From: Candidatus Pacearchaeota archaeon | GTDB taxonomy: Archaea > Nanobdellota > Nanobdellia > UBA10117 > JABICX01 | Assembly (NCBI GenBank): GCA_017608025.1 | Contig: JAFCGM010000004.1 | Location: 90,744 to 154,743, forward strand | Direction of reading: 5' to 3' | Length of the DNA stretch: 64,000 nt | Part shown: positions 15,359-59,955 of the stretch, piece by piece | Layout: each line of letters opens with the position of its first letter | Position numbering within the stretch: the stretch's first letter is position 1 | Translations under genes and position numbers: made by a program | Notes under the pieces: generated by a model | What the model was told of the DNA's origin: nothing | Database searches by the model: none | The model's input: only the letters and a program-made list of their open reading frames with translations

Positions 15359-15543
15359 CTTACAAGGAGAAATTCAATAAACCTTTTGGGTTGGAAAACA
15401 TCCCTGAAGGTTTTCCGCCAGAAACGAACGTAGTTCGTGCCTATGAAATAGTGCTTTTTTAAAAGGGCTGTTTAGGGTTGGAAGACCTTTTTCAAAGGGA
15501 TTCCGTTTGAATCCTTCTCCCGCTACTTACAAGGAGAAATTCA
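15343..15543 (+). mobile_element. 133-bp repeat element (15377-15509) inserted at the 3' end of tRNAi-Met, flanked by a 34-bp direct duplication of the tRNA 3' end plus downstream sequence (15343-15376 and 15510-15543).
   Basis: Exact direct repeat AATCCTTCTCCCGCTACTTACAAGGAGAAATTCA twice. The internal sequence shares a >50-nt near-identical core (GGTTTTCCGCCAGAAACGAACGTAGTTCGTGCCTATGAAATAGTGCTTTTT) with 35579-35632. Confidence 0.6.
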
Positions 15544-15556
15544 TCAAAAAAATAAA

Positions 15557-16207
15557 ATGAAAACATGCGGTGTTGATGAAGCTGGAAGAGGACCTATTAT
15601 CGGACCAATGGTTCTTGCAGGTGTTTGCGCTTCAGAAAAAAAACTAGAAGAATTAAAAAAGCTTCATATAAAAGATTCTAAATTACTAACTCCAAAACGG
15701 CGGGAAGAACTCTTCAAAAAGATAATTGCAAAATATAAATATGTAATTGTAAAAATATCTCCGCAAGAAATTGATTCTAACAACGCAAATGGAACAAATT
15801 TAAATCGCCTTGAAGCAAAAACTATTGCTCGAATAATTATGGAAATGAAACCTAACAAAGTAATTGTAGATTCTCCAGAACCTGCTGATGAGCAAAAATT
15901 TGGCCGAACAATAAAAGAACTATGTAAAAACTGCAAACCTAAAATTTCAAGTGAACATAAAGCAGATACAAACCACATTATTGTTGGTGCAGCCTCAATT
16001 CTAGCAAAAGTAACTCGCGACAAGGAAATTGAAAAAATAAAAAAAGAAACAAAAATAGATATTGGCTCAGGATACCCTTCAGATGAAATAACAATAAAAG
16101 CATTAAAAGAGCATTTAAGTGAACTTGAACCTTATATAAGAAAATGCTGGGCAACATACAAAAGACTCAAAGGTGAAAAGTTCCAAGCTAATTTAGAAGA
16201 TTTCTAG
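15557..16207 (+). CDS. rnhB: Ribonuclease HII.
   Basis: N-terminal GVDEAGRGPIIGPMV catalytic motif, 216 aa. Confidence 0.9.
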   Translation: MKTCGVDEAGRGPIIGPMVLAGVCASEKKLEELKKLHIKDSKLLTPKRREELFKKIIAKYKYVIVKISPQEIDSNNANGTNLNRLEAKTIARIIMEMKPNKVIVDSPEPADEQKFGRTIKELCKNCKPKISSEHKADTNHIIVGAASILAKVTRDKEIEKIKKETKIDIGSGYPSDEITIKALKEHLSELEPYIRKCWATYKRLKGEKFQANLEDF

Positions 16208-16364
16208 TTTGGGGTTGGAAGACCTTTTCTAAAGGGATTCCTGTGAAAAGTTCCAAGCTAATTTAGGAGATTTCTAATTCAGTGCACAACAATGCAAATG
16301 TTTGTGCGCTAAGCGTGGGTCCCTTCGCTTTAAGGACTTCCAAGCTAATTTAGGAGATTTCTAA
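16177..16364 (+). repeat. Three direct copies of the rnhB 3' end (ttccaagctaatttag[a/g]agatttcta[g/a]) at 16180-16207, 16248-16274 and 16339-16364, separated by two short hairpin elements (16208-16247; 16278-16338).
   Basis: Copy 1 ends in TAG; copies 2 and 3 are identical to each other and end in TAA. Inserts carry the family motifs tttggggttggaagaccttttctaaagggattcc and gtgggtcccttcgctttaaggact. Confidence 0.6.
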
Positions 16365-16756
16365 ACTTTCTCAAGAAGTTTATTAAGATAAGAAACAGTA
16401 ACATCTCGCATAAAGCGGATTATATCTATATTCTCTGGGTTATGCAGACGTATATTTTTCTTATCAACAACATATGTAAAATTAAAAGTATTAGTAATAA
16501 AATCAAAGGTTAAAATATCATGACAAGCAGTAATGCGCGATTCTAACGTCTCATCAGATTTACTCAAAAATAGCTGATAGATTAAACCACTATACGTTGA
16601 GATTTTATTATTTTTATAATCTCTAACAACATCCATAAAAATCTCGGGATCTTTTCTAATTTCAGCAGGCAATCCAAGAACCTCGTCTGGAATTGGAATT
16701 GCTCCAAACCCACATTTAGTTACTTCATAATCCTCAGGATTAAGATATTCAACCAT
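16361..16756 (-). CDS. Hypothetical protein (131 aa).
   Basis: ORF only. Its stop codon overlaps the last rnhB-tail repeat copy. Confidence 0.35.
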   Translation of the reverse strand: MVEYLNPEDYEVTKCGFGAIPIPDEVLGLPAEIRKDPEIFMDVVRDYKNNKISTYSGLIYQLFLSKSDETLESRITACHDILTFDFITNTFNFTYVVDKKNIRLHNPENIDIIRFMRDVTVSYLNKLLEKV

Positions 16757-19085: not shown

Positions 19086-19988
19086 ATGGTTTTAGAGTCA
19101 ATAATCCCAGTAAACATTGCTGAGGAAAGGCCGATTAAAATTCTTCCTACAAGTTTCATATATGCCACAATAGCCTTGTTCATTGCTTATTGGCTTTTCC
19201 CAACAGAAGCTAGCATGACTCTAATTTTTTTCACAGTAATGGCTTGCCTTCCTCTAATGCTTGGCCTAATCGGACTTGAAAAACTAAAAGCAGAAGCAAT
19301 TTTAAAGGAAATAGTTTTTGACTATGTATCTCAACCAAATAAAAAAACATCAAATCCTTTCAAAACCCACAAAAAATTCTTCCTGTTTATGACATACTTA
19401 ACAATTGGACTTGTTCTTGCATTCACTCTTTGGTATATTGTTCTGCCAACAAATATGGTAAATCTTCTTTTCAATTCCCAAATAAACACAATAAACACAA
19501 TAAACAGCAATGTGTCCCATCTAACTGGAAATGCAATAAACATTATATCTTATTTCAGCATAATACTTACAAACAATCTCAAGGTTTTGATTTTCTGTCT
19601 TCTCTTTTCTTTCATTTATGGAGCAGGAGCAATTTTCATTCTTGTTTGGAACGCCAGTGTTGTATCTATTGCAATTGGAAATTCAATTAGAGGTCTTTTA
19701 AGCAGTTACGCAGCAGCAACTGGAGCAAACACTCTTAGTCAGTATTTCTCTGCCTTCTCTCTTGGACTCTTGCGATATATTGTACATGGAATTCCTGAAA
19801 TCGGAGCATATTTTATTGGTGGGCTTGCTGGAGGAATGATTTCAATTGCAATTATAAAACACGAATTTATGAGTCCTAAATTCAAAATAATTTTAATGGA
19901 CGCCCTCCTGCTAATGCTAATTTCTGTCGGGCTTCTAATCCTTGCCGCACTTATAGAAACCTTTATCAGTCCACTAATTCCTATTTAA
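19086..19988 (+). CDS. SpoIIM-like (DUF95 family) polytopic membrane protein, paralogue 1.
   Basis: Multi-TM protein. Conserved core NNLKVLIFCLLFSFIYGAGAIFILVWNASVV is shared with the downstream paralogue. Confidence 0.5.
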   Translation: MVLESIIPVNIAEERPIKILPTSFIYATIALFIAYWLFPTEASMTLIFFTVMACLPLMLGLIGLEKLKAEAILKEIVFDYVSQPNKKTSNPFKTHKKFFLFMTYLTIGLVLAFTLWYIVLPTNMVNLLFNSQINTINTINSNVSHLTGNAINIISYFSIILTNNLKVLIFCLLFSFIYGAGAIFILVWNASVVSIAIGNSIRGLLSSYAAATGANTLSQYFSAFSLGLLRYIVHGIPEIGAYFIGGLAGGMISIAIIKHEFMSPKFKIILMDALLLMLISVGLLILAALIETFISPLIPI

Positions 19989-20331: not shown

Positions 20332-21174
20332 ATGGTTTTAGAATCAATAATTCCAATAAAAACAGCAGAAAAGCAACCAATAGAAATGCTGCCTCTGGCT
20401 TTTTTGTATGCTTCAATTGGAATTTTCATTGGATACTGGATTTTTCCAAATTACGCAAGCCTCTCTTCTGTTTTCTTCACAGTCCTTGCTCTAGTGCCTT
20501 TAATGGTAAGTTTCATAAAATTCGAGGAAAAAGATGTTTTCAAAAAGCAGGAAAAATGGCATCACAAAAAAGCAATTCCTTTTTTTTGCTTTATGTTTCT
20601 CGGCCTTGTTTTTGCTTATTCATTTTGGTTCATAGTGTTCCCTTCTTCTCTAATTGGAAGTGTTTTTGGAATTCAGCTTAACACAATAAATCAAATAAAC
20701 AGCCAAGTAACTGGAAATTCTGCAGCAGTATCGTTTTTTTCAGCAATTTTATCAAACAATCTCAAGGTTTTGATTTTCTGTCTTCTCTTTTCTTTCATTT
20801 ACGGAGCAGGAGCAATTTTCATTCTTGTTTGGAATGCAAGCGTGGTTTCAGCAGCAATTGGAAATGGAGCTAGAGCATTAATTTCAAAACTTGTAGAAAC
20901 AACAAACCTACCAGGAATTGCAGTGTATTTCTCTGCCTTCTCTCTTGGGTTACTTAGGTATATGTCTCATGGAATTTTCGAAATGATTGGCTATTTCCTA
21001 GGCGGGCTTGCTGGTGGACTGATTTCTGTTGCAATTCTCCGTCACGAATTTATGGATAATAATTTCAAAAAAGTAATGCTCGATTCATTAACCTTAACTC
21101 TTTTTTCAATAGCAGTTTTGATTCTGGCTGCAGTAATAGAAGTTACTTTCTCACCCTTAATTCCATTTAAATAA
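20332..21174 (+). CDS. SpoIIM-like (DUF95) membrane protein, paralogue 2.
   Basis: ~45% identical to 19086-19988 overall, but shares an 83-bp tract (20755-20837) with only 2 mismatches to 19572-19654. Confidence 0.5.
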   Translation: MVLESIIPIKTAEKQPIEMLPLAFLYASIGIFIGYWIFPNYASLSSVFFTVLALVPLMVSFIKFEEKDVFKKQEKWHHKKAIPFFCFMFLGLVFAYSFWFIVFPSSLIGSVFGIQLNTINQINSQVTGNSAAVSFFSAILSNNLKVLIFCLLFSFIYGAGAIFILVWNASVVSAAIGNGARALISKLVETTNLPGIAVYFSAFSLGLLRYMSHGIFEMIGYFLGGLAGGLISVAILRHEFMDNNFKKVMLDSLTLTLFSIAVLILAAVIEVTFSPLIPFK

Positions 21175-35557: not shown

Positions 35558-35674
35558 GTGTGGAGGTTCTTTTCTAAAGGTTTTCCGCCAGAAACGAACG
35601 TAGTTCGTGCCTATGAAATAGTGCTTTTTCTAAAAGAGCTGTTTGAGGTGAAGACCTTTTCCAAAGGGATTCAA
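35558..35674 (+). repeat. Repeat-family element covering the 5' leader of the next gene.
   Basis: Contains the ~53-nt core shared with 15403-15455 and an end gaggtgaagaccttttccaaagggattcaa. The ORF-track start at 35558 lies inside it. Confidence 0.6.
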
Positions 35675-38015: not shown

Positions 38016-39023
38016 TTGTTCAAAATGCTTAAAGTTCCAATAAATGAAATAATAGAAAAAATTTCAGAAGCCAGCGGCCTTTCTGACGCAGAAATAAAAA
38101 AGAAAATACAAGAAAAAATGAATTCCTTAGAAGGCCTTGTTTCAGAAGAAGGAGCAGCACACATAATTGCTCATGAACTTGGAATAGAACTTTTCAAAAC
38201 AAGCTATGAAAAGGAAGTTAAAATAAAAGAGCTTCCAATTGGATTAAGAAAATTCGAAATAGTTGGTGTAATAACTAATGTTTTTAATGTGAAGACTTTC
38301 AAAAAGCAAAATAAAACTGGAAAAGTTGCATCATTTATTCTAGAAGATGAAACAGCAAGAATAAGAGTAACTCTTTGGAATGAAGCTACAGATCTTGTTG
38401 AAACAGGAAAAATAGCAGAAGGAAAAACAATCAAAATAAAAAATGGACTAGTAAAAATAAACAAATACCAAGGACGTGAAAACAAGGAAATTCACACAAC
38501 ATCTGGAACGAAAATTGAGTTTGATGTTGAAGAAAAAATAGAAATTCATGACAGAACAAAAGCTCCTGCATATGAATTTAAAAATATAAATCAAACAAAA
38601 GCAGGAGATTTAGTTAAAATAAGAGGAACAGTTGTTTCTGTTTTCATGCCCAAACTTTATTTTGCTTGCCCTGAGTGTAACAAAAAAATAGAAGTTGAAA
38701 ATGAAAAAGGAATTTGCAAAGACCATGGTGATGTTAAGCCAAAGAAAACAGCTCTTTTCTCTTTTGTTGTTGATGATGGAACTGACAACATTCGTTGCGT
38801 GTCATTCCGTGAAACAGCAGAATCAATATTGAACATGTCACCAGAAGATATTGAAGTTGCTCAGGAAGAAAATATTAATCAAAGAATATTAGGAGATGAA
38901 GTGGAAATTGTCGGAAGAGTTAATGAAAACAAGCAGTCTGGAAAAAAAGAAATACTCCTCTCAGGAGTTAACAAAAATTTAAATCCAGTTCAAATTGCAA
39001 AAAGCATATTAGGTGATAATTAA
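38016..39023 (+). CDS. rpa: Replication protein A (ssDNA-binding) with an OB fold and a C4 zinc ribbon.
   Basis: RPA-like N-terminus (...[16 protein letters not shown]), OB domain, [21 protein letters not shown] zinc finger. Confidence 0.65.
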
Positions 39024-40099
39024 TGGCAAAAAAAACAAAACCTGAAAAAAAAGAGGAAAAAATTTCAGAAGAAATTGCAGAAAACAATCCAGAAGAAAAA
39101 GCAAAACAAAAAAAAGAATCTGATGAAATAAAAGAAAAAGAAAAAGTAGCTACAATGAAAATCGAGGACTTACCTGGAGTTGGTCCGGCAACTGTTGAAA
39201 AGCTAAAGGAAGCAGGTTATTTAGACTTAATGAGTCTAGCAGCAGCCCCTTCTCGTGAACTTGCAGACATAGCAGGAATGACTGAATCTGGAGCAGGAAA
39301 AGTTATTGTTGCTGCAAGAAAAGCTCTTAAAATTGATTTCATGACAGGAGATGAATTATCTTCAAAAAGAAAAAGTATTGAAAGAATATCAACTGGAAGC
39401 CAGGAATTTAACAAGCTTATTGGTGGGGGAATTGAAACACAAGGTCTGTTTGAATGCTTTGGTGAATATGGTTCTGGAAAATCCCAACTAGCAATGCAGT
39501 TGGCAGTTATGGCTCAGCTTCCAAAAGAAAACGGAGGTCTCAACAGTGATGTAATTTACATTGACACAGAAAACACATTCCGGCCAGAAAGAATAAAGCA
39601 AATAGCAGAAGCGCAAGGCCTTGACTCTAAAAAAGTATTGAAAAGAATAATGGTAGCTCGGGCATTCACATCAGATCATCAAATGCTGCTTGCAGAAAAA
39701 ATTGACAGTATGATTCGTGAAAAGAATATACACGTAAGGCTTGTAATAGTAGATTCCTTAACTTCATTATTCAGAACAGAATATTCTGGAAGAGGAACTC
39801 TCGCCACAAGACAGCAAAAACTTAATCGACATCTTCACACTCTGCAGAGAATCGCAGACATACACAACATAGCAGTTTACGTAACAAACCAAGTAATGGC
39901 TCGGCCAGACATTTTCTTTGGAAACCCAACAGCAGCAATAGGAGGTCATGTTCTAGGGCATGCCTGCCAGTTCAGAGTTTACCTTAGAAAAAGCAAAGGA
40001 GACAAAAGAATCGCCCGCTTAATAGACTCTCCATATTTACCAGAAGGCGAAGCAATCTTCAGAGTAACTGAAAAAGGAATTGAAGATATTAAGTCCTAA
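39023..40099 (+). CDS. radA: DNA repair and recombination protein RadA, with a Lys/Glu-rich N-terminal extension or an alternative start at 39155.
   Basis: HhH ([13 protein letters not shown]), Walker [10 protein letters not shown], RecA core. 358 aa. Confidence 0.9.
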
Positions 40100-40440
40100 C
40101 TTGTGTTAAGCAATCACTTTTTTGATGAAACTTTTTCTAAAATTTCAATTTTTTGCAAGCTTTCTTTCTAAGAAAGCTTTGGGAATGAAAACACTTTTTA
40201 AAGGGTTTTCTGTAACTGAAAAAGGAATTGAAGATGTTAAGTCTTAATTACAGGTATCGTATTTTGTTTACCTGTTGAAAGTGCCAGCTGATTTTGCAGC
40301 TGGAAGATGTTAAGTCTTAATTACAGGTATCGTATTTTGTTTACCTGTTGAAAGTGCCAGCTGATTTTGCAGCTGGAAGATGCTAAATCCTAACTTATAT
40401 TAAGCAATCCATTTTTTTAATGAAACTTTTTCTAAAAGAG
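40066..40440 (+). repeat. Nested/tandem array downstream of radA: four direct copies of the radA 3' end (40066-40099, 40214-40247, 40303-40320, 40376-40393). They are separated by a ~95-bp family element and by two copies of a 55-bp two-hairpin module (40248-40302 and 40321-40375; period 73 bp).
   Basis: Copies ...gaagat(a/g)ttaagtc(c/t)taa. Module ttaCAGGTAtcgtattttgttTACCTGttgaaagtgcCAGCTGattttgCAGCTG with two perfect stems. Confidence 0.65.
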
Positions 40441-50012: not shown

Positions 50013-51296
50013 TTACTTTTTTGCTTTTATCTTCCGAAATCCAGTGTATTTCCACAAGCATCCAGGAATTTTAATGCTGCCGTCTTTTTGTTGATGATTT
50101 TCAAGCAATGCAGGCAAAGCTCGTGAAGTTGCAACCATTGTATTATTCAGCATGTGAACGTATTTTTTCTCATTCCTATCCAAATATCTTGTTTTTGTCT
50201 TAACTGCCTGGTAGCTTCTGCAGTTGCTGCATGAAGTGACTTCTCGATAAGCTCCTTTCTTATTGTTTTGTCCTGGAAACCATGCCTCAATATCATATTG
50301 TAAGCTTTGTTTATCTCCCAAATCACCTGAACAAATATTGACAACTTGAAAAGGAATTCCCAAATCTTTGAAAAATTTCTCAGTGATTTTCTGCAAAATG
50401 TTAAAAAATTTATCTGAATCTTTTGGTTCGCAAAGAACAACTTGTTCTGCCTTATTGAATTGATGCATCCTCATTGTTCCTTTGTCATCCTTGCCATGCG
50501 TTCCTGCCTCCATTCTAAAGCATGGGCTTATTCCTCCATACTTAATTGGCAAATCCTTTTTTTGTAGTGTCTCATTTGCATGCAAGTTAACCAAAGGTAG
50601 CTCAGAACTTCCAATTAAATACAAATCTTCATTTTCAACTTTGTAAATTGTATCTTCAAAATCACTTAAATTAACTGCATTACCAATATACTTTTTCTTC
50701 ATCATCAGTGGTGGCCAAACCATTTTAAAGCCATTTTTAACCAAAATCTCAATTGCATACATTTGCATTGCCCAATCAAGAACAACTGCCTCATTCTTAA
50801 AATAAACAAACCTCGCGCCAGAAACCTCAGCACCTTTGTCAAAGTCAAACAAGTCAAGAGTTTTTCCAAGTTCAATATGGTCTTTGTGCTTGAAGCGAAA
50901 TTTCTTTGCTTTTCCAACTTTCTTTAAAACAACATTATCTCGCGCATCTTTGCCTTTTGGAACTGAATTGTCAAGCAAGTTTCCAACTTTTCTTCTATAA
51001 AAATCTCTTAGTTTCAGAAAATCATCTGACTCTTTCTGAGCATCATTTATTCTTGCAGAAACTTTCCGCATTTCTTGAATCTGCAATTCAGCCTTTTTTC
51101 CCTGGCTTCGAAGCTTTGCAACTTCCTTGTTCAGCTCGTTTCTCCTAGCCCTAAGCTCCTCAACTTCCTTTAATGAATTTCTCCACTTTTTATCATACAA
51201 AGCAACATTTCTTGCATTTGAAATAGGCTTTCCCCGTTTCCTTTCGCTTTCTTCAACTTCTTTAAGATGCTCTCTAAAATATCTTATTTCCAGCAT
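50013..51296 (-). CDS. serS: Seryl-tRNA synthetase.
   Basis: N-terminal coiled-coil arm and class II core. 427 aa. Confidence 0.9.
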   Translation of the reverse strand: MLEIRYFREHLKEVEESERKRGKPISNARNVALYDKKWRNSLKEVEELRARRNELNKEVAKLRSQGKKAELQIQEMRKVSARINDAQKESDDFLKLRDFYRRKVGNLLDNSVPKGKDARDNVVLKKVGKAKKFRFKHKDHIELGKTLDLFDFDKGAEVSGARFVYFKNEAVVLDWAMQMYAIEILVKNGFKMVWPPLMMKKKYIGNAVNLSDFEDTIYKVENEDLYLIGSSELPLVNLHANETLQKKDLPIKYGGISPCFRMEAGTHGKDDKGTMRMHQFNKAEQVVLCEPKDSDKFFNILQKITEKFFKDLGIPFQVVNICSGDLGDKQSLQYDIEAWFPGQNNKKGAYREVTSCSNCRSYQAVKTKTRYLDRNEKKYVHMLNNTMVATSRALPALLENHQQKDGSIKIPGCLWKYTGFRKIKAKK

Positions 51297-51356: not shown

Positions 51357-52373
51357 ATGCTGCTTATAGATGGCTCCAAAGGCGAAGGCGGAGGGCAAAT
51401 TCTCCGAACGGCTTTGTCTCTTAGTGCAATAACGGGCAAGCCATTTAAAATCAAAAACATCCGTACAAACCGCCCAGAAAAAGGGCTTCGCCCGCAACAT
51501 CTTTCATGCATAAATGCTTGCGCAGAAATCTGCAATGCAGACGTAACTGGAGCAAAAATTGGCTCAAAAGAGCTTTCTTTTTTCCCTAAAAAAATTCAGT
51601 CAAAAAAATATAACTTCAAATTTAACATTGGAACTGCTGGCTCAACACCTTTGCTTTTGCAAACAATAATTCCAATCCTTGCCTTTTCCCCTTCAGTTTC
51701 AAAAGTGGAAGTAACTGGTGGGACAGATATTCCTTTCTCTCCAACAATACACTATCTTCGCCACGTATTCTGCGACTTTCTTCAAAGAATAGGTCTTAAC
51801 ACTCACTTGCACATTTTGTATCATGGTTTTTACCCAAAAGGACTAGGAAAAGTGAAAGTGATTATTTATCCATGGAAAAACAAATATCCTCTTAAAATAA
51901 AAAAAAGAGGAAAAGCAGAAAGAATCGACACAATAAGCATTGCCTCATTTAATTTAAAAAAAAGAGATGTTGCCAGACGGCAAACATATGGATTTGAACA
52001 GGAAATTAAAATAACTGGAGACTCAACAAATCAATATGTGCCTTCTGCTTCGCCAGGAACTTCTTTTCACGCTCATGCTCATTTTGAAAACACAAAACTC
52101 GGCTCTTGCGAAGTTGGAAGAAAAAACATTTCTGCAGAGCAGGTTGGAAGAAACGCAGGCCTTAAACTATTAAAAGAAATAAAATCTTCAGCAACTATTG
52201 ACAAAAGAATGGCTGACCAAATTCTATTGTATCTTGCTTTCAGCGGAGGAGAATTTATAATAAGCAAAAAAACAAACCATTTCATAACAAACAAGAAGAT
52301 TATTCAAAAGTTCTTAAATTGTAAAATAAGTGAAAAAAATAATATAATTAAAATTACACGTTATAATACATAA
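51357..52373 (+). CDS. rtcA: RNA 3'-terminal phosphate cyclase RtcA.
   Basis: N-terminus IDGSKGEGGGQILRTALSLSAITGKPFKIKNIR and overall RtcA architecture. 338 aa. No rtcB is adjacent. Confidence 0.85.
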   Translation: MLLIDGSKGEGGGQILRTALSLSAITGKPFKIKNIRTNRPEKGLRPQHLSCINACAEICNADVTGAKIGSKELSFFPKKIQSKKYNFKFNIGTAGSTPLLLQTIIPILAFSPSVSKVEVTGGTDIPFSPTIHYLRHVFCDFLQRIGLNTHLHILYHGFYPKGLGKVKVIIYPWKNKYPLKIKKRGKAERIDTISIASFNLKKRDVARRQTYGFEQEIKITGDSTNQYVPSASPGTSFHAHAHFENTKLGSCEVGRKNISAEQVGRNAGLKLLKEIKSSATIDKRMADQILLYLAFSGGEFIISKKTNHFITNKKIIQKFLNCKISEKNNIIKITRYNT

Positions 52374-52532
52374 AATTTATTTTTAAGCGACTTTTCATTC
52401 CCAATGTTTATCGCCAGAAGCAAACTTAATTTGCGCCTAAGCTATGCTTAGTAGGGATCTCTTCGCTAGAAAAACACAAACAAAGAAATCATTGAAAAAT
52501 TTCTTAATTGCAAAATCATTGAAAAAAACAAA

Positions 52533-52739
52533 TTAATTATAATCTTTCCTTCTAGAATTTAATTCCACATTTTTACCAATAAAAACAATGCCGTCCTTCA
52601 TCATCTGGTCCTTGCCTTCTTCAGCCATTATCAAAAGATATGCTGCATGCTCAAAAAAAGCGTCAAAATCCTTATACCTGCCTTCTTCAATAAACTTCTT
52701 AATCTTATCTTTTTTCTCTTTTGAAATTTTTATTTCCAT
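52533..52739 (-). CDS. Small ribbon-helix-helix (CopG/Arc-like) DNA-binding protein candidate.
   Basis: Beta-alpha-alpha pattern MEIKISKEKKDKIKKFIEEGRYKDFDAFFEHAAYLLI. 68 aa. Confidence 0.4.
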   Translation of the reverse strand: MEIKISKEKKDKIKKFIEEGRYKDFDAFFEHAAYLLIMAEEGKDQMMKDGIVFIGKNVELNSRRKDYN

Positions 52740-52835
52740 TACTCCTCCATTGCACTGCGCGTAAACGTATGTGCAATCAAATTGCGAGCTTTTTCGAAAG
52801 CTCTGAAATTTTTATTTCCGTTTTATTCCTGCTCC
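52740..52835 (+). repeat. Direct duplication of the RHH gene 5' end (gaaatttttatttcc[a/g]tt...tcctcc) at 52722-52750 and 52803-52835.
   Basis: Read directly. The second copy lacks the start codon. Confidence 0.5.
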
Positions 52836-52993
52836 TTATCAACAAGAACAATAACTCGTTTTCCAATTAATTTTTTCGGAAGTGTGATTTTTCCAGATGA
52901 AGCATTGTTTTTAATAACATATCTTGTTAAAATTTGGTTAAAGTTTATTGGCTTCAACTTAACACTTCCCCGAACTTTCGCATTAATTCCCAT
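52823..52993 (-). CDS. 56-aa AbrB/MazE/SpoVT-like swapped-hairpin DNA-binding protein. Not in the supplied ORF track because it is under 60 aa.
   Basis: Translation MGINAKVRGSVKLKPINFNQILTRYVIKNNASSGKITLPKKLIGKRVIVLVDKEQE. The GKITLPKKL..GKRV motif resembles the AbrB swapped hairpin. ATG at 52991-52993 (rc), TAA at 52823-52825 (rc). Confidence 0.35.
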   Translation of the reverse strand: MGINAKVRGSVKLKPINFNQILTRYVIKNNASSGKITLPKKLIGKRVIVLVDKEQE

Positions 52994-53359
52994 TAAATTA
53001 ATTCCTCATCTTTCTAATTTGTTTCTTTGGGCAACTTGCACTTTCTTTTCTAAAGAAAGGGCAGAGCATTAATTCCCATTAAATTAATTCCTCGTCTCTC
53101 TAATTTGTTTCTTTGGGCAACTTGCACTTTCTTTTCTAAAGAAAGGGCAGAGCATAACTTTTATAGTCTAATTAAAGACTACAATATTTAAAAACCTTAT
53201 GTGCATCCTTGCTCTACACGATCATATTCGTCATTTTCCGCAAGCGCTTTTTCCAAAAGGGCTCCATGAGTCCCTTGGCTAGAAGGACTATAACCAGAAT
53301 TAAACCGTTGTGTGAAGCTCTGCTTTACACGACCAGCCTGTGTCCCTTGGCTAGAAGGA
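52979..53359 (+). repeat. Two tandem 87-bp units (52979-53065 and 53066-53152), each beginning with a copy of the AbrB-like gene start. These are followed by a ~120-bp GC-richer family element (53235-53359) carrying two gtcccttggctagaaggacta hairpin motifs.
   Basis: Tandem units are near-identical. The 53235-53292 segment is ~90% identical to 3041-3100. Confidence 0.6.
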
Positions 53360-55201
53360 CTATTTAATCTTCTTTAAAATAGCGTGATTTCCCTTCCAGT
53401 TAATTGCTTCTTTAAGAACATCCTTAAGCGTGGTTGCAGGAATAATTTTTATTTTGTTTTTCAAATTAGAACTTAAAATAATATCTTTTTCATTTGCAGC
53501 GGGAACAATAACTTTCTTCATTCCTGCCTCAATAGCAGCCTCAACTTTTTGAGTTACACCACCAACAGGAAGAACATCTCCTCTAACAGACAAACTTCCA
53601 GTCATTGCTACTTCCTGATTTATTGGCAAGTTCTTTATTGCAGAAATAATGCATGTTGCAACAGATATGCTCGCACTATCACCTTCAACACCTTCATATG
53701 TTTGGAGAAATTGAACATAAACATCATATTTCTTCAAATCTTCATTAAACCATTTCTTAACAATTGCAGAAACATTTGTAATTGCTTCTTTTGCAATTTT
53801 TCCAAGTTGGCCTGTAGCAACAATTTTCCTGTCTTTTTTTGATTCAGATGGAACTACTTCTCCATCAATTGGCAAAACAATTCCTGAAAAATTGCCATTG
53901 CTTCCAATAACAGCAAGACCATTAACTCGCCCAACAAACTCTCCTTTTGACTTTATAACATTGTAAGCTTTCTTGTCATTAATAACTCTATCAGCAAGCT
54001 GCTGCTCCAAACCTCTAGAAAGCTTTCTTGCATCAATAACATCTTTCTCTGTAACAACTTTATGATCTCGTTCATTTGCTAAATCTCCTGCTGCTCTTAC
54101 AAGCCCTCCCAAATCTCTCAATCTTAAAGTTAGTTTTTTCTTTTTTCCAGACATTCTTCTTGCAACAGAAATAACTTCTTCAACTGCTTTTTTAGTGAAA
54201 TGCGGAATCTTGCCATCCTTAACAACTTCTTGTGCAACAAACCTTACCAGTTTGTCTCGGTTTTCTTTGTTATCTTCCATATAATCATTCATATAAATTT
54301 CATAACCATATCCCTTAAGCCGCGACCTTAAAGCAGGATGTATGTTTTTAACAGTTTCAAGATTTCCTGCTGCAATTAAAACAAAATCACAAGGAACTTG
54401 TTTAGTTTTAACTAATGCTCCTGCGCTTCTCTCAGACTGGCCTGTAATTGAAAATTTCTTTTCCTGCATTGCAGTCAAAAGCTCTTGTTGAGACTTTGGC
54501 TCAAGTGTTGAAACTTCATCAATAAACAAAACTCCGCCATTTGCTTTATGAATCATTCCTGCTTCAACTCTCAAATGCGCTGGAGTTGCAAGCCCGCCAG
54601 ACTGAAAAGGGTCGTGTCTTACATCTCCAAGCAAAGCACCAGCTTTTGCTCCAGTAGCATCAACAAAAGGTGCTTTTTTTGCTCCAGAATTATTAACAAT
54701 AAGCTTTGGCTCAACAATTTTTTTATTTTTTTGCGGCATGCTAAGTGAAAGCATAATTATTCCAAAAAAAATAAACCCTCCAATTAAAGAAGCAGCAGCC
54801 ATCACATCTCCGTACTGGCTCCGAATAAACCAAGGAATCATCAATACAATAAATCCCAAAACCAAATAAAGCAGTTTCCTACTCTTCATAAAGCTCTGTG
54901 CTTTAATCTTTGCAGAGTTAACAAAAGAACTTCCCTGACCTGCTTTTACCTCACTAATTATTGGCTCATTTTCATCTTCTTCATTTGGAAAAACAAGTAT
55001 ATCTCTCAATAAGCTTTTTGGCAAAAGCTCTGAAAGCGCCTGCCCAATCATTGATTTTCCCGTCCCTGGAGTTCCAATAAGAAAAACATGACGTCTTTGC
55101 TTCGCTGCCTTCTTAATTATGTTTACAGCTTCATCCTGCCCAATAATCTGGTCAACAATTTTGCTCGGGACTTTAATTTCTTTAGTGGTTTTGAATTTCA
55201 T
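53360..55201 (-). CDS. lonB: Archaeal membrane-bound Lon protease (LonB).
   Basis: AAA+ Walker A GTPGTGKSM with two TM helices inserted in the ATPase domain. C-terminal Lon protease domain with catalytic Ser (VGGVTQK...). 613 aa. Confidence 0.9.
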   Translation of the reverse strand: MKFKTTKEIKVPSKIVDQIIGQDEAVNIIKKAAKQRRHVFLIGTPGTGKSMIGQALSELLPKSLLRDILVFPNEEDENEPIISEVKAGQGSSFVNSAKIKAQSFMKSRKLLYLVLGFIVLMIPWFIRSQYGDVMAAASLIGGFIFFGIIMLSLSMPQKNKKIVEPKLIVNNSGAKKAPFVDATGAKAGALLGDVRHDPFQSGGLATPAHLRVEAGMIHKANGGVLFIDEVSTLEPKSQQELLTAMQEKKFSITGQSERSAGALVKTKQVPCDFVLIAAGNLETVKNIHPALRSRLKGYGYEIYMNDYMEDNKENRDKLVRFVAQEVVKDGKIPHFTKKAVEEVISVARRMSGKKKKLTLRLRDLGGLVRAAGDLANERDHKVVTEKDVIDARKLSRGLEQQLADRVINDKKAYNVIKSKGEFVGRVNGLAVIGSNGNFSGIVLPIDGEVVPSESKKDRKIVATGQLGKIAKEAITNVSAIVKKWFNEDLKKYDVYVQFLQTYEGVEGDSASISVATCIISAIKNLPINQEVAMTGSLSVRGDVLPVGGVTQKVEAAIEAGMKKVIVPAANEKDIILSSNLKNKIKIIPATTLKDVLKEAINWKGNHAILKKIK

Positions 55202-55261: not shown

Positions 55262-55531
55262 TCACTCTGTTGTAGTATCTGTAATGTTTGCTGTAGCGTT
55301 TTCAATTATCATTATTTGACCAATTGCCCGTACAAGTTGGTGTGGAATTTGAACTCCCTTTGCAGAAGGAAGTGATTTTTTAAGAAGAGAATTGCTATTT
55401 GTGGTTCTTACTCTCCATCCAACAACCTTGTTTGTTGAAACAATAGCATCCTCTATTTCGCCGAAAAATTCGCCATCAATAGTATAAACTCTCAAACCAT
55501 TAACTTCACTAATATTTTTAAGATTTAACAT
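55262..55531 (-). CDS. PRC-barrel domain protein.
   Basis: LRVYTIDGEFFGEIEDAIVSTNKVVGWRV pattern. 89 aa. Confidence 0.55.
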   Translation of the reverse strand: MLNLKNISEVNGLRVYTIDGEFFGEIEDAIVSTNKVVGWRVRTTNSNSLLKKSLPSAKGVQIPHQLVRAIGQIMIIENATANITDTTTE

Positions 55532-55581
55532 TAAGCATCACCGTCTTAAAAAATACACATCATACTACAATAAAAAGATTT

Positions 55582-55770
55582 CTAAAATATAACGTATGCT
55601 TCTTAAATTATATTTCTTTTAGTGCAGGTTTTCTTTGTAAAAGAAAAAGTGCAAAGGTCTCTAAAATATAACGTATGCTTCTTAAATTATATTTTTTTCT
55701 TTGTAAAAGAAAAAGTGCAAAGGTCTCTAAAATATAACGTATGCTTCTTAAATTATATTTCTTTTAATAC
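55582..55770 (+). repeat. Three tandem direct repeats (79, 66 and a partial ~45 bp) upstream of the TraB-family gene.
   Basis: Unit ctaaaatataacgtatgcttcttaaattatattt(c)tttt...ctttgtaaaagaaaaagtgcaaaggtct. Units begin at 55582, 55661 and 55727. Confidence 0.7.
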
Positions 55771-55857: not shown

Positions 55858-56514
55858 ATGTCTCTCAAAATACTTGGCTCATCGCACATATCAGGAAAAT
55901 TCGCAAGCAAGGTTTATGACACAATAATCGTTGAAGAACCAGAAATTGTTGCAGTTGAATTAGACTTAGCTCGCGCCCGCGCTTTATTTTCAAAACAAAA
56001 ACAAAAAATTTCATTTAAAACAATAAGGAATTTCGGCCTTTTTGGGTTCTTTTTTGCACTTATTGGATCTAAAATACAGAAATATTTAGGTAAAAAAGTT
56101 GGTTTTGAACCTGGAATTGACATGAAAAAGGCAATTATTGCAGCAAAAAAAGTAAATTCAAAAATAATTCTCATTGACCAGCCAATGAGTAAAACACTTC
56201 AAAAACTTTCCAAAATTAGTTTTAAAGAAAAAGTAAAACTTTTCTTTTATTTAATTTGGCCATTTCAAAAAAAAGCTAAAATGTCTTTTGATTTGTCTTC
56301 TGTGCCAAATGAAAAAACAATTAATAAAATAATAAAAGATTTTAAAGAAAAATTTCCTGGAATTTATTCGGTGCTTATTAAAGAAAGAAATGATTTTATT
56401 GCAAAAAACTTAATTGATTTAAAAAGAAAATTTGAAAATTTAAACATTGTAGCTGTTTTGGGAGCAGGACATGTTTCTGAAGTAAAAAAATTAATTAAAA
56501 ATTTTGAAGAATAA
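55858..56514 (+). CDS. TraB/PrgY-family protein (Tiki/TraB fold).
   Basis: N-terminus ILGSSHISGKFASKV, GHVSEV near the C-terminus. 218 aa. Confidence 0.6.
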   Translation: MSLKILGSSHISGKFASKVYDTIIVEEPEIVAVELDLARARALFSKQKQKISFKTIRNFGLFGFFFALIGSKIQKYLGKKVGFEPGIDMKKAIIAAKKVNSKIILIDQPMSKTLQKLSKISFKEKVKLFFYLIWPFQKKAKMSFDLSSVPNEKTINKIIKDFKEKFPGIYSVLIKERNDFIAKNLIDLKRKFENLNIVAVLGAGHVSEVKKLIKNFEE

Positions 56515-56526
56515 TTAAAAATATTT

Positions 56527-56818
56527 TTAAAAAAATTATTTTAATATAATATTTTTTTAAATATAAATTAAAACAAAAAAAAGCATTTTTTAACTGAAAT
56601 ATGCAAAAAAAATAGCAAAAATTAAATAAAAAATTAAATAAAAATTATTTTTTATTAAATTAAAACAAAAAATAAGTAAATTTAATGAAAAATCATAAAA
56701 AATACATAAAAATCATGAAAAAAAGATTTAAAAAAATTATTTTAATATAATATTTTTTTAAATATAAATTAAAGCAAAAAAAGCAAGAGATAAGTTTTTA
56801 TGTTCTGAAATATACAAA
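56527..56818 (+). repeat. Extremely AT-rich (>90% AT) intergenic region containing a ~200-bp tandem duplication. The 59-bp near-identical cores are at 56527-56585 and 56727-56785, with weaker similarity continuing about 30 bp beyond each.
   Basis: tttaaaaaaattattttaatataatatttttttaaatataaattaaa(a/g)caaaaaa(a)agca occurs twice, 200 bp apart. Confidence 0.7.
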
Positions 56819-57673: not shown

Positions 57674-59872
57674 ATGCAATTCTTAAAGCAAAAGCTAAAT
57701 TTAAGAGTGTATCAGCAAACAATATTAAACACAGCTCTTAGCAAAAATACTCTTTGCGTAATCCCTACTGGTCTTGGAAAAACCTACATAGCAATAGCTC
57801 TAATTGGCTTAAAATTAAAAGAAAAAAAAGCAATTTTTCTTGCTCCAACTAAGCCTCTTGTAACGCAGCACTTTAACACCTTTAAGCAGTTTTTTGATTC
57901 TGAACCCGAAGAAATAATTGAAGTTTCTGGAACAGTTCCTTCAAAAAAAAGAAAAGAAATGTATAAAAAAGCAAAAATAATTTTTGCAACCCCACAAACA
58001 ATTGAAAATGACATAATTACAAAAAGAATACTTCCTGAGGAATTTTCAATAGCAATATTTGATGAAGCTCATCGCGCAGTAGGAGACTATGCATATGTTT
58101 TCCTTGCAAAGCAATTCAAAGAAAGTAGAATTCTAGCATTAACAGCTTCTCCCGGTCATGAAATTGAAAAAATAAATGAAATAAAAAATAACCTGTTTAT
58201 TCAAGAAATTGAAAAAAGAACACAAAAAGACAAAGATGTTAAAGAATATGTAAAGGAAATTAAATTTCAGTACAAAAAAGTTGAGCTTCCAAAACTTATG
58301 AAAGCAATACAAAAACACCTTAAAATGGCAATGAAAGAATATCTTGTCCAACTAAAGGAATTAGATATTATTGACTCAACCAGCTTGTCAAAATTCAGCA
58401 GAAAAAACCTTCTAAATCTTCAAACTAAACTTCGTACGCAAATAAGCACAGGAGATTTTGAAATAATGCGCGCCCTATCAATAACAGCAAGACTAATAAA
58501 AATAAATTATGCCCTTCATCTTCTTGAATCTGAATCGCTGAATGCCTTGAATGATTATTTAAAGTCAATTTGGAAAGATTCAAAAACAACAAAAACAAAA
58601 GCAGTAAAAGCTCTTGTCCAAAATTTCCATATTCGTGCAGCATACAGGCTTTCTCAAGAATGTAAAGAAAAGAAAATAGAGCACCCAAAAATGCTTGAAC
58701 TGAAAAAAACAATTAAACAGGAATTGAAAAAAAATCCCAACTCAAAAATACTAATTTTCACTGAATACCGAAGCAATGTTGAGCAAATTGTACAAGAATT
58801 ATCTGAATTTAAAATTCATCAGTTTGTTGGCCAATCCTCTTTAAAGAAAAAAGGAATGTCGCAAAAAGAGCAGATTAAAGCAATAGAAGATTTAAAAACA
58901 GGAAAAGTTAATGTTCTTGTCTGCACTTCTGTAGCTGAAGAAGGCCTTGACATTCCAAAAGTGGATTTAATTGTTCTTTATTCTCCAATTCCTTCTGCTA
59001 TTAGGTCAATACAAAGAAAAGGAAGAACTGGCAGACAGGAAGTTGGAAATCTTGTAGTCCTTTTAACAAAAGACACAAAAGATGAAACTTATCATTGGAT
59101 TTCTGTAAATCGGGAAAGGAAAATGAATCAAGTGCTTACAAACATGTCACAGTCAAAAAGCAAGCTAATAACTCTTGACTCCTTTCAAAACAAAAGCAAA
59201 GAAAAGCAAACTGTTGAAAATAGGGAAGAAATAAAAGTATATTGTGATTGCCGCGAATCAGGAATATTAAAATATCTCATAGAGCACGGCGTTACAGTTC
59301 TTCCAAAAAAACTAGAAGTTGCAGACTTCATTCTCTCTGATGATATTGCAGTTGAAAGAAAGGAAGTAGAAGATTTTACTTCTTCTTTAATTGACCAACG
59401 CCTTTTTAACCAAGCAACTGAACTAAAACGAAACTTCGAAAAACCGCTTTTTATTATTGAAGGAGACTTATCAGAAATTTTCTTTTCAAGAAACATAAAT
59501 CCTGATGCTCTCCGCTCAGCAATGATCTCTTTGCTTGTTGATTATCAAATACCTTTTTTATTCAGTTCAAACAAGCAGGAAACTGCAAAATACCTTTACC
59601 TCATAGCTAAAAGAGAACAAATTGAAAAGAAAAAATTAATTTCCTTACGCGGCTCCAAAAGATTAACTTCAATTCCAGAAATGCAGCAATTCTTTATTGA
59701 AGGTTTGCCTTTAATTGGTCCTGCTCTTACAAAAAAGCTCCTAAAGCACTTCAAAACACCAAAAGCTTTGTTAAATGCCTCAAAAGAAGAGCTTCAAAAT
59801 GTTAAAAACCTCGGCCCAAAAAAAGCAGAAAAAATCAAAATGATTCTTGAAGAAATATATGATGAAGAATGA
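57674..59872 (+). CDS. hef: Hef (helicase-associated endonuclease for fork-structured DNA; XPF/FANCM homologue).
   Basis: SF2 helicase motifs (GLGKT, DEAH), XPF nuclease ERK motif (AVERKEVEDF), C-terminal HhH2. 732 aa. Confidence 0.85.
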   Translation: MQFLKQKLNLRVYQQTILNTALSKNTLCVIPTGLGKTYIAIALIGLKLKEKKAIFLAPTKPLVTQHFNTFKQFFDSEPEEIIEVSGTVPSKKRKEMYKKAKIIFATPQTIENDIITKRILPEEFSIAIFDEAHRAVGDYAYVFLAKQFKESRILALTASPGHEIEKINEIKNNLFIQEIEKRTQKDKDVKEYVKEIKFQYKKVELPKLMKAIQKHLKMAMKEYLVQLKELDIIDSTSLSKFSRKNLLNLQTKLRTQISTGDFEIMRALSITARLIKINYALHLLESESLNALNDYLKSIWKDSKTTKTKAVKALVQNFHIRAAYRLSQECKEKKIEHPKMLELKKTIKQELKKNPNSKILIFTEYRSNVEQIVQELSEFKIHQFVGQSSLKKKGMSQKEQIKAIEDLKTGKVNVLVCTSVAEEGLDIPKVDLIVLYSPIPSAIRSIQRKGRTGRQEVGNLVVLLTKDTKDETYHWISVNRERKMNQVLTNMSQSKSKLITLDSFQNKSKEKQTVENREEIKVYCDCRESGILKYLIEHGVTVLPKKLEVADFILSDDIAVERKEVEDFTSSLIDQRLFNQATELKRNFEKPLFIIEGDLSEIFFSRNINPDALRSAMISLLVDYQIPFLFSSNKQETAKYLYLIAKREQIEKKKLISLRGSKRLTSIPEMQQFFIEGLPLIGPALTKKLLKHFKTPKALLNASKEELQNVKNLGPKKAEKIKMILEEIYDEE

Positions 59873-59955
59873 TTTGGGGATGCAAACACTTTTTCAAAGG
59901 GTTTGCTGCTGAAAAAATCAAAATGATTCTTGAAGAAGAATTTAGTGAGGAGTAA
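59825..59955 (+). mobile_element. 35-bp hairpin element (59873-59907, tttggggatGCAAACactttttcaaaggGTTTGCtgct) inserted at the Hef 3' end with a ~48-bp duplication of the gene tail (59825-59872 and 59908-59955).
   Basis: Copy 1 encodes ...AEKIKMILEEIYDEE*. Copy 2 encodes ...AEKIKMILEEEFSEE*. The first 30 bp are identical and the ends have diverged. Confidence 0.55.

What the first reader, a model, noticed from the sequence alone, without database searches (positions are those of the whole stretch)
52533..53359. Pair of tiny DNA-binding proteins (RHH-like plus an unannotated 56-aa AbrB-like ORF) whose 5' ends are each duplicated, followed by 87-bp tandem repeats, upstream of lonB
On the minus strand there is a 68-aa ribbon-helix-helix-like ORF (52533-52739). 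There is also a 56-aa ORF (52823-52993) with an AbrB/MazE swapped-hairpin-like motif (GKITLPKKLIGKRV). The latter falls below the ORF-track cutoff and is instead overlapped by a probably spurious 96-aa plus-strand ORF. The start region of each small gene is directly duplicated once: 52722-52750 vs 52803-52835, and 52979-53013 vs 53066-53100. This is the 5'-end counterpart of the 3'-end duplications seen elsewhere. The region ends in a family element (53235-53359) abutting the lonB stop. Two antitoxin-fold DNA binders with no toxin partner, embedded in repeats, could be the regulators or recognition factors for the element family. Alternatively they could be a minimal regulatory module for lonB.
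Basis: partly seen in the sequence, partly recalled or inferred. Interest (0 to 1): 0.55.

Follow-up and report, generated by a model that had tools for sequence, protein, structure and literature searches.

The report
Two small genes peppered by hairpin inserts
Two real, conserved small genes for likely DNA-binding proteins sit just after the Lon protease gene of a tiny archaeon, and their "duplicated starts" are scars left by small hairpin DNA elements that copy a stretch of host sequence wherever they land in this genome.

Summary
ORF-A (52533-52739, 68 aa) and ORF-B (52823-52993, 56 aa) are both genuine genes under purifying selection. Both are conserved in related Woesearchaeota contigs. 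The overlapping 96-aa plus-strand ORF is spurious.

- **ORF-B** belongs to the DUF2080 family. An AbrB-like fold is plausible but unproven.
- **ORF-A** has ribbon-helix-helix (RHH) topology. Relatives at 33-40% identity also lie after lonB, once overlapping its stop codon, and once coupled to hsp20.
- **Position.** The genes lie downstream of lonB on the same strand, not upstream.

The "duplicated 5' ends" and the tandem repeat (86 bp, not 87) share one structure. A host segment X is repeated on both sides of a hairpin-bearing insert E, giving X(EX)n.

Sister contigs show the empty site (ORF-B stop overlapping the ORF-A start) and a single-insert form. The rtcA tail is duplicated in the same way.

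The habit is genome-wide:
- 48 short-range repeats in the window, against 2-8 in shuffles. They include a tRNA 3' end and several gene tails.
- Nearly all modules lie in one orientation.
- A hairpin always abuts the right-hand X copy.

Nothing ties the two proteins to these elements beyond DUF2080's usual place next to TnpB genes. How the inserts arise is unknown.

The parts
53360..55201 (-). lonB (archaeal LonB protease, 613 aa). It is transcribed towards the two small genes.
   Evidence: Pfam hits Lon_C and LonB_AAA-LID. Synteny PRC-LonB-small genes-rtcA in L001, L005, L008 and L021.
53234..53363 (+). Composite hairpin element directly after, and overlapping, the lonB stop. It comprises the module GCGCTTTTTCCAAAAGGGC (53234-53264) plus two copies of GTCCCTTGGCTAGAAGGACTAT (53270-53291 and 53342-53363).
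   Evidence: 53234-53291 is about 90% identical to 3042-3100. The element is absent from the lonB/ORF-B spacer of L008 and L001.
53164..53194 (-). Inferred ancestral ORF-B promoter. It has a TATA-like box TTTTTAAATATT (53183-53194) and an inverted repeat TAGTCT-N6-AGACTA (53164-53181).
   Evidence: Read from the sequence. The homologous TTTAAATAGTCT...AGACTA in L001 lies directly before the ATG, and lies upstream of the array in L008. The function is inferred.
53152..53165 (-). Outermost, degenerate copy of X (CTATAAAAGTTATGC). It is what remains of the original ORF-B start.
   Evidence: Comparison with L001 (ACTAATGGGAGTTAATGC) and with the intact first X copies of L008 and L015. This is an inference.
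53066..53151 (-). Distal 86-bp unit, made of insert E1 plus X. It contains a decoy start at 53077-53079 that opens a 9-codon ORF (MGINALPFL*, 53050-53079).
52980..53065 (-). Proximal 86-bp unit. E1 (52994-53065) carries the hairpin CTTTCTTT-AGA-AAAGAAAG and a GAGGA Shine-Dalgarno-like motif. X (52980-52993) is the functional first 14 nt of ORF-B.
   Evidence: Homologous E1 lies at the same position in L008 (2 inserts) and L015 (1 insert), and is absent in L001 and L005.
52823..52993 (-). ORF-B, a 56-aa DUF2080-family protein.
52804..52835 (-). Upstream, inactive copy of the ORF-B-tail/ORF-A-head junction (X). Its core is 52804-52822, with ATG changed to ACG.
   Evidence: The empty site in L008 has the ORF-B stop overlapping the ORF-A start as TAATG.
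52741..52803 (-). Insert E2 (63 nt). It carries the hairpins GAGCTTT-CGAA-AAAGCTC and TTGCAC...GTGCAA, and GGAGGAG just before the ORF-A ATG.
   Evidence: Homologous E2 lies at the same junction in L015.
52533..52739 (-). ORF-A, a 68-aa RHH-like protein. Its functional start lies in the downstream X copy (52722-52740).
52475..52563 (+). Old copy of the rtcA 3' tail. It still reads TNKEIIEKFLNCKIIEKNKLIIIFPSRI* and overlaps the 3' end of ORF-A.
   Evidence: It is 91% identical to the rtcA tail of L008, which overlaps ORF-A there.
52374..52474 (+). Insert E3, made of hairpin modules (CGCCAGAAGCAAACTTAATTTGCGCC and others). It lies between the new and old rtcA tails.
   Evidence: It resembles modules at 8750 and 15415.
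51357..52373 (+). rtcA (RNA 3'-phosphate cyclase), convergent with ORF-A. Its present tail (52286-52373) is the newer copy of X.
52782..53072 (+). 96-aa plus-strand ORF. It is spurious.
   Evidence: It has no family hit. The frame is broken by stop codons in L008, L005 and L001.

Best explanation
The region holds two genuine small genes in a Woesearchaeota-type (DPANN archaeal) genome.

**ORF-A** is a ribbon-helix-helix protein. It is an old companion of lonB: in more distant relatives it is translationally coupled to lonB, or to hsp20. It is most likely a dimeric DNA-binding regulator tied to the protein-quality-control genes. That role is inferred.

**ORF-B** is a DUF2080-family mini-protein with its own TATA-type promoter. 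It was inserted between lonB and ORF-A in this lineage. In the closest relative its stop codon overlaps the ORF-A start, so the two form a compact bicistron.

**The inserts.** In the window's genome this compact locus has been invaded at four boundaries:
- after the lonB stop;
- 14 nt into ORF-B;
- at the ORF-B/ORF-A junction;
- in the overlapping tails of ORF-A and rtcA.

The invaders are short mosaic elements built from GC-clamped CTTTT-loop-AAAAG hairpins. At the last three boundaries a stretch of host sequence (X, here 14 to about 90 nt) is copied on both sides of the insert; after the lonB stop the repeated 22-nt segment is itself a hairpin module.

Because both copies survive, the upstream gene keeps its end and the downstream gene keeps its start. 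No gene is broken. The redundant copy then decays: ATG has become ACG, and ATGGG has become TAAAAG.

Recombination between the X copies then expands the structure to X-E-X-E-X (the 86-bp tandem repeat) or removes it precisely.

The "duplicated 5' ends" are therefore insertion footprints of a genome-wide repeat family. They are not a feature of the two proteins.

**What is shown:** the anatomy, the empty and filled sites, and the genome-wide pattern.
**What is inferred:** the protein functions and the way the duplications arise.
For: **The genes are real**
- Substitutions are biased to third codon positions and to synonymous changes.
- Orthologues occur in five contigs.

**ORF-B is DUF2080**
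-.

**ORF-A is RHH-like**
-.

**ORF-A is linked to lonB**
- L021 has PRC-LonB-RHH with an ATGA overlap, convergent with rtcA, and has no DUF2080 gene.
- L020 has LonB, then three ABC-transporter genes, then RHH overlapping hsp20.

**Empty versus filled sites**
- L008 has TAATG at the ORF-B/ORF-A junction and an rtcA/ORF-A tail overlap. The window has X-E-X at both places.
- L015 has a single E1 insert flanked by ATGGGTGT(A/T)AATGC, and a homologous E2. L008 has two E1 inserts. L001 and L005 have none, with the TATA box about 30 nt before the ATG.

**The pattern is genome-wide**
- 48 short-range repeats against 2-8 in shuffles.
- Copies of a tRNA-Met 3' end and of several gene tails.
- Dispersed module copies at 90-100% identity.
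- About 30 intergenic module copies all in plus orientation.
- A stable hairpin 0-5 nt before the right-hand X copy in at least 10 cases.
- Hairpin stems are kept through compensatory differences.
Against: - No enzyme that could move the modules was found in the window. tblastn and phmmer with TnpA and TnpB queries found nothing. The rest of the genome is unseen.
- X lengths from 14 to about 90 nt fit no fixed-stagger transposase.
- The RHH assignment rests on a model built from two sequences and on non-significant structure matches.
- The ORF-B fold is unknown.
- Only five related contigs exist, all short. Insertion cannot therefore be fully separated from ancestral presence followed by precise loss.
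- One distant ORF-A relative (L024) is not next to lonB.
Confidence: 0.62

Rival explanations
1. There is no mobile element. Hairpin-forming terminator-like sequences stall replication and cause local slippage or template switching. This makes tandem duplications of whatever lies next to them. The modules resemble each other because they are functional signals under similar selection, or are homogenised by gene conversion.
For: - Several arrays are exact tandem duplications of about 2 copies, at 40230, 44325, 52980 and 55629.
- X length is highly variable.
- A hairpin always abuts one X copy, as expected if the hairpin sets the break point.
- No transposase was found.
Against: - Simple slippage gives X-E-X-E, not X-E-X. 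Yet X-E-X occurs at the tRNA-Met site, at 59828 and in L015.
- The empty sites contain no E at all, so E came from elsewhere.
- Identical 40-61-nt modules lie 20 kb apart.
Confidence: 0.22
2. ORF-B, perhaps together with ORF-A, is a surviving accessory gene of an IS200/IS605-type (TnpB-associated) element. It binds the hairpin modules and controls or directs their spread.
For: - Canonical DUF2080 genes lie immediately upstream of TnpB-family genes on haloarchaeal plasmids.
- IS200/IS605 elements have hairpin ends and insert in a strand-specific way. Here the modules share one orientation.
- ORF-B is a lineage-specific insertion between lonB and the RHH gene.
- A more distant relative lies near an IS6-like transposase fragment.
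Against: - There is one copy per genome, and it is syntenic.
- It is present in L001 and L005, which show no duplications in 17 kb.
- No TnpA or TnpB was found in the window.
- IS200/IS605 transposition makes no target duplication.
- There is no binding evidence.
Confidence: 0.08
3. The repeated promoter-proximal units are a selected regulatory device. They would provide multiple operators, or decoy start codons with hairpins, to tune ORF-B/ORF-A expression.
For: - The array sits between the TATA box and the gene in three lineages.
- It always supplies a Shine-Dalgarno-like motif before the functional ATG.
- Its hairpin is maintained.
Against: - Copy number and sequence differ between lineages.
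- The array is absent in L001 and L005.
- The same architecture occurs at unrelated gene tails and at a tRNA.
- The decoy peptides are not conserved.
Confidence: 0.08

Closest known systems
DUF2080 family transposase-associated protein (Pfam PF09853, NCBIfam NF033496)
   Same: Same size (45-57 aa) and same core motif G-x-[SG]-[GA]-[KH]-[IV]-x-[LV]-P-K-x-[LW]-x-G-x-x-V. The HMM score is above the NCBIfam cutoff.
   Different: It is not followed by a TnpB-type gene. It sits in a conserved chromosomal locus between lonB and an RHH gene, and is followed by variable cargo in relatives.
Ribbon-helix-helix regulators and antitoxins (CopG/ParD/MazE9 type)
   Same: A short N-terminal strand-forming segment followed by two helices. 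The best structural matches are RHH antitoxins. The protein is small.
   Different: There is no Pfam RHH hit for the protein itself. There is no toxin partner. The conserved neighbours are lonB and hsp20 rather than a toxin gene.
REP/BIME mosaic elements and MITEs of bacteria
   Same: Short GC-clamped palindromes of several sub-types combined as mosaics. They are confined to intergenic space at gene ends and occur as many dispersed copies.
   Different: The inserts are flanked by long, variable copies of host sequence (14 to about 90 nt). There are no terminal inverted repeats. The hairpin lies at one end only. Almost all copies share one orientation.
IS1634/IS1549 insertion sequences
   Same: They produce long direct repeats of variable length on insertion (8-514 bp, mechanism unknown; PMC2266710).
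   Different: Those are 1.5-2 kb elements that encode a DDE transposase. Here the inserts are 33-225 nt and non-coding, and no such transposase has been seen.
MIRU-type intergenic tandem repeats of mycobacteria (from my own knowledge)
   Same: Tandem units of 40-100 bp lie between genes of an operon, and their ends overlap stop and start codons.
   Different: MIRUs are not built around a family of hairpins. They are not described as X-E-X target duplications.

Membership tests
DUF2080 (PF09853 / NF033496) | Profile score at or above the curated cutoff | tested here: met
   NCBIfam scores 24.3 against a cutoff of 22. Pfam scores 21.2 against 21.5 for the window protein, just below. The orthologue P0004 carries a precomputed PF09853 hit. 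Relatives P0007 and P0008 score 28.6 and 31.7, above the cutoff, and 6 of 6 members hit the family.
DUF2080 (PF09853 / NF033496) | Gene lies directly upstream of a transposase (TnpB-type) gene | tested here: not met
   Haloarchaeal members precede TnpB-family genes. Here the next gene is ORF-A. In relatives it is an unrelated 486-aa protein or an acyltransferase. No TnpB was found in the window.
AbrB/MazE/SpoVT swapped-hairpin fold | Sequence-profile or structural similarity to AbrB-type domains | tested here: inconclusive
   hhalign gives 21% probability, aligned in the expected register (GKITLPKKL to GRVVIPIEL). The AF2 model has pLDDT 56.7, and Foldseek gives no meaningful hit.
Ribbon-helix-helix superfamily | Strand-helix-helix topology in about 45 residues | tested here: met
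   In the AF2 model residues 1-6 are extended, with helices at 7-18 and 25-48. pLDDT is 91-95 over residues 11-30.
Ribbon-helix-helix superfamily | Significant match to an RHH profile or solved RHH structure | tested here: inconclusive
Ribbon-helix-helix superfamily | Dimerisation and DNA binding through the paired N-terminal strands | not testable with these tools
   This needs a multimer model or an experiment.
Type II toxin-antitoxin module | Adjacent toxin gene in the same operon | tested here: not met
   There is no further ORF between lonB and rtcA in the window or in L008.
MITE | Terminal inverted repeats and a short target duplication of fixed length | tested here: not met
   The hairpin is at one end of the insert only. 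The flanking copies are 14 to about 90 nt and variable.
REP/BIME-like palindromic elements | Dispersed short palindromes in intergenic regions, combined as mosaics | tested here: met
REP/BIME-like palindromic elements | Cognate Y1 (RAYT/TnpA-like) transposase in the genome | tested here: inconclusive
   None was detected in the 64-kb window. The rest of the genome is not available.
IS200/IS605-derived hairpin elements | Strand-specific orientation and no target duplication | tested here: not met
   The orientation bias is present. However, long target duplications are the rule here.

The most novel reading that the evidence does not exclude
The hairpin modules would represent an undescribed way of adding DNA to a genome. 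They are short non-coding hairpin units that enter gene boundaries in one strand orientation. The 3' side of the hairpin is joined directly to a re-copied stretch of 14-90 nt of host sequence.

One possible route is that the hairpin acts as an unremoved primer on the lagging strand, followed by ligation of a displaced flap. This is my speculation.

Because the target is duplicated, overlapping or abutting genes are separated without damage. The insert can be lost precisely, or amplified, by recombination between the copies.

Probability: 0.3. Interest if true: 0.7.

Novelty: new variant of a known kind. Interest (0 to 1): 0.45.

Why it matters
- **For annotation.** Duplicated gene starts and ends in these small archaeal genomes are insertion scars. 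The short antisense ORFs over them are artefacts.
- **For biology.** The locus gives a clean set of empty, single and double states for a hairpin repeat family with unusually long, variable target duplications that spare the flanking genes. A mechanism of this kind has no accepted explanation, even for IS1634.
- **A testable lead.** A small RHH protein is persistently linked to lonB and hsp20 in DPANN archaea, where regulators of protein quality control are unknown.

Tried and rejected
- **PDB sequence searches.** Both protein profiles gave nothing relevant.
- **ORF-B structure.** The AF2 model was too poor to use.
- **Fold library.** The afdb50 library was not available.
- **Collection scans for ORF-B relatives.** The genome and metagenome scans returned only the already known L001/L002 locus. 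The viral scan returned none.
- **Rfam.** Only two tRNAs were found in the window, so the hairpin modules match no known RNA family.
- **RNA fold of the lonB-to-ORF-B spacer.** It is not unusually stable (z = -1.6).
- **L001 cargo gene.** The 486-aa protein after ORF-B in L001 is not a recognisable transposase.
- **Literature.** Searches for Woesearchaeota hairpin repeats and for PF09853 found nothing. Filee et al. 2007 is not held.
- **Rejected: assembly artefact.** The same architecture, with diverged sequence and decayed copies, occurs in three independent assemblies.
- **Rejected: diversity-generating retroelement repeats.** The copies are short and near-identical, with too few differences to show the adenine-specific substitutions such elements make.
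- **Rejected: integrase att sites.** The inserts are only 33-225 nt and are built from the same modules at many different targets.

Full report
**Setting.** The window is AT-rich (about 33% GC) with uniformly negative GC skew. Around the finding the genes are:
- seryl-tRNA synthetase, 50013-51296 (-);
- RNA 3'-phosphate cyclase rtcA, 51357-52373 (+);
- the two small ORFs (-);
- archaeal lonB, 53360-55201 (-);
- a PRC-barrel gene, 55262-55531 (-).

The nearest named relative of the locus is a Candidatus Woesearchaeota MAG. Both small ORFs are transcribed in the same direction as lonB and lie after it. The title's "upstream of lonB" is therefore wrong in the transcriptional sense.

**Are the ORFs real?** Yes.
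- Identical proteins are already held by NCBI and JGI (P0001 and P0005, on a 193-kb contig).
- ORF-B has orthologues at 82-96% identity in four other contigs. ORF-A has orthologues at 62-75% in three.
- Between the window and L008, ORF-B differs at 27 nucleotides. Twenty of these are at third codon positions, giving 23 synonymous and 1 non-synonymous codon changes. ORF-A shows the same bias.
- The 96-aa plus-strand ORF has no family hit. Its frame is interrupted by stop codons in L008, L005 and L001. It is an artefact of the AT-rich antisense strand.

**What are the proteins?**

*ORF-B.*
- It scores above the curated cutoff of NCBIfam NF033496, "DUF2080 family transposase-associated protein" (24.3 against 22).
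- It scores just under the Pfam PF09853 cutoff (21.2 against 21.5).
- All six members of its small family hit PF09853, up to E = 1e-7.
Compare GNSAHVTVPKRWRGADV in haloarchaeal members.
- Whether this is an AbrB-type fold remains open. The AF2 model is unreliable (pLDDT 56.7).

*ORF-A.*
- It has no Pfam hit.
- Its AF2 model (pLDDT 74.5, and above 90 over residues 11-30) shows an extended N-terminus followed by helices at 7-18 and 25-48. That is the ribbon-helix-helix topology.
- Distant relatives give sub-threshold RHH_8, RHH_1 and RHH_7 hits.
- I rate the RHH assignment at about 0.75.

There is no toxin gene.

**Context in relatives.** The block PRC-lonB ... rtcA-serS is conserved.
- In L021 (LonB 63% identical), an ORF-A relative overlaps the lonB stop (ATGA) and converges on rtcA. 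There is no DUF2080 gene.
- In L020, an ORF-A relative lies after lonB plus three ABC-transporter genes. Its stop overlaps the start of an hsp20 gene.
- One other relative (L024) is elsewhere.

ORF-A is therefore an old neighbour of lonB and of protein-quality-control genes. ORF-B, which has its own TATA-type promoter, is a later insertion between them.
- In L001 and L005, further cargo follows ORF-B: a 486-aa protein with no recognisable family, and an acyltransferase.
- In L008, the ORF-B stop overlaps the ORF-A start (TAATG). The ORF-A stop overlaps the rtcA stop.

**The duplications.** Read in the gene direction, the window has the following order.
1. A TATA box (53183-53194) and the inverted repeat TAGTCT-N6-AGACTA.
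2. A decayed remnant of the original start (..AAAAGTTATGC).
3. Two 86-nt units, each made of an insert E1 (72 nt) plus X = ATGGGAATTAATGC.
4. The last X forms codons 1-5 of ORF-B.

Sister contigs show the other states:
- L015 shows the simple form: promoter, ATGGGTGTAAATGC, one homologous E1 (77 nt), ATGGGTGTTAATGC, then the gene.
- L008 has three X copies and two E1 inserts (unit 135 nt).
- L001 and L005 have no insert, and the TATA box lies about 30 nt before the ATG.

The junction lies at the same nucleotide in all three filled lineages. E1 always begins with a hairpin (CTTTCTTT-AGA-AAAGAAAG and variants, with the C-G pair shifted in both arms) and ends with a Shine-Dalgarno-like motif.

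The other two boundaries follow the same plan.
- **ORF-B/ORF-A junction.** The window has X (AACGGAAATAAAAATTTCA), then E2 (63 nt, two hairpins), then X (AATGGAAATAAAAATTTCA). L015 has a homologous E2, and L008 has the empty site.
- **rtcA tail.** The old tail (52475-52563) is 91% identical to the rtcA tail of L008 and still overlaps the ORF-A end. It is separated by about 100 nt of hairpin modules from the present tail (52286-52373), which is 81% identical to the L008 tail.

After the lonB stop lies a composite of two module types. It is about 90% identical to a copy at 3042-3100.

**Genome-wide pattern.**
- The window holds 48 direct repeats of at least 12 nt at spacings of 20-300 nt, against 2-8 in shuffles.
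- Examples:
  - the last 17 nt of tRNA-Met plus 17 nt downstream (15343-15376) are copied 167 nt away, across a 133-nt hairpin mosaic;
  - the tail of gene 57674-59872 is copied, with the old C-terminus (EFSEE*) left behind a new one (IYDEE*);
  - the tail of gene 39023-40099 is present four times;
  - at 16173-16366, three copies of one gene tail are separated by two different modules.
- Module copies at 90-100% identity lie tens of kilobases apart.
- About 30 intergenic copies of six module types are all in plus orientation, whatever the direction of the neighbouring genes. The array at 55629 appears by eye to be an exception.
- In plus orientation, a stable hairpin ends 0-5 nt before the right-hand X copy in at least 10 cases. 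None abuts the left-hand copy.
- Stems differ between sub-families in a compensatory way.
- L001 (11.5 kb) and L005 (6 kb) contain no such repeats, although they carry both small genes.

**Interpretation.** The simplest account has three parts.
- Hairpin-bearing modules are added at gene boundaries together with a duplication of the target.
- The duplication keeps both neighbouring genes intact.
- Recombination between the X copies then expands or deletes the insert. This explains arrays of "n plus a fraction" copies and the empty site in L008.

The enzyme and mechanism are unknown.
- Variable 14-90-nt duplications fit no fixed-stagger transposase.
- The only precedent I found is IS1634/IS1549, with direct repeats of 8-514 bp and no mechanistic model (PMC2266710).
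- The single orientation and the hairpin-to-X junction suggest a strand-specific, possibly replication-coupled process. That is speculation.

**Link between the proteins and the repeats.** It is weak. Canonical DUF2080 genes on haloarchaeal plasmids lie directly upstream of TnpB-family genes of the hairpin-ended IS200/IS605 group. That is suggestive. Against it:
- no TnpA or TnpB is detectable in the window;
- the gene is single-copy and syntenic;
- it occurs in lineages without the duplications.

**Verdict.** These are two ordinary but real small DNA-binding-type genes. One belongs to a known family of unknown function. The other is an RHH protein with a conserved link to lonB. The eye-catching duplications belong to a genome-wide hairpin repeat family. 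The manner in which that family inserts is the most interesting and least explained part of the finding.

Noticed in passing
window 15343-15376 and 15510-15543: The last 17 nt of tRNA-Met plus 17 nt downstream are repeated exactly, 167 nt away. The two copies flank a 133-nt mosaic of hairpin modules.
   Followed up: partly
window 59828-59937: The tail of gene 57674-59872 is duplicated (27 nt) around a 56-nt hairpin insert. The gene now ends IYDEE*, and the old ending EFSEE* lies downstream.
   Followed up: partly
window 40064-40440: The last codons and stop of gene 39023-40099 (GAAGATnTTAAGTCyTAA) occur four times. They are separated by different hairpin modules, including an exact 73-bp tandem repeat.
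   Followed up: partly
window 16173-16366: Three copies of the tail of gene 15557-16207 are separated by two different hairpin modules. This implies repeated insertion at one target.
   Followed up: partly
whole window, e.g. 3042, 8718, 15415, 20023, 35585, 40118, 44359, 53234: About 30 intergenic copies of six hairpin module types all lie in plus orientation, regardless of gene direction. Cumulative GC skew falls monotonically across the window.
   Followed up: partly
window 15404-15464 and 35574-35634: A 61-nt intergenic segment is repeated at 95% identity 20 kb apart. This is evidence that the modules are copied between loci.
   Followed up: no
window 55574-55764: A promoter-like 41-46-nt segment containing TTAAATTATAT is present three times. 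The copies are separated by an E1-like hairpin in the opposite orientation, between the divergent PRC-barrel and TraB-like genes.
   Followed up: partly
window 56487-56782: A very AT-rich (about 26% GC) intergenic stretch with degenerate 92-nt repeats. It might be an origin-like or promoter region.
   Followed up: no
window 19086-19988 and 20332-21174: Adjacent paralogous genes: 123-146-nt segments at 74-89% identity, 1183 nt apart. The tail of the first plus its terminator hairpin is duplicated between them.
   Followed up: no
L021 3001-3183; L020 3001-3195: Distant relatives of ORF-A overlap the lonB stop (L021) or overlap the start of an hsp20 gene (L020). This hints at a conserved RHH partner of protein-quality-control genes in DPANN archaea.
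   Followed up: partly
L016 2998-4899; L017 2995-4871; L018 2992-4439: On haloarchaeal plasmids, DUF2080 genes lie immediately upstream of genes annotated "transposase". Those genes are TnpB/Cas12f-like RNA-guided nuclease homologues.
   Followed up: yes
L001 5560-5700: GC-rich hairpins of a different sequence (GCATCAGTGCCCAGACTGATGC, GCGCCCTTTTGGGCGC, GCGACTGCTTCGGCAGTCGC) follow ORF-B in the Woesearchaeota MAG. They have no flanking duplications.
   Followed up: no
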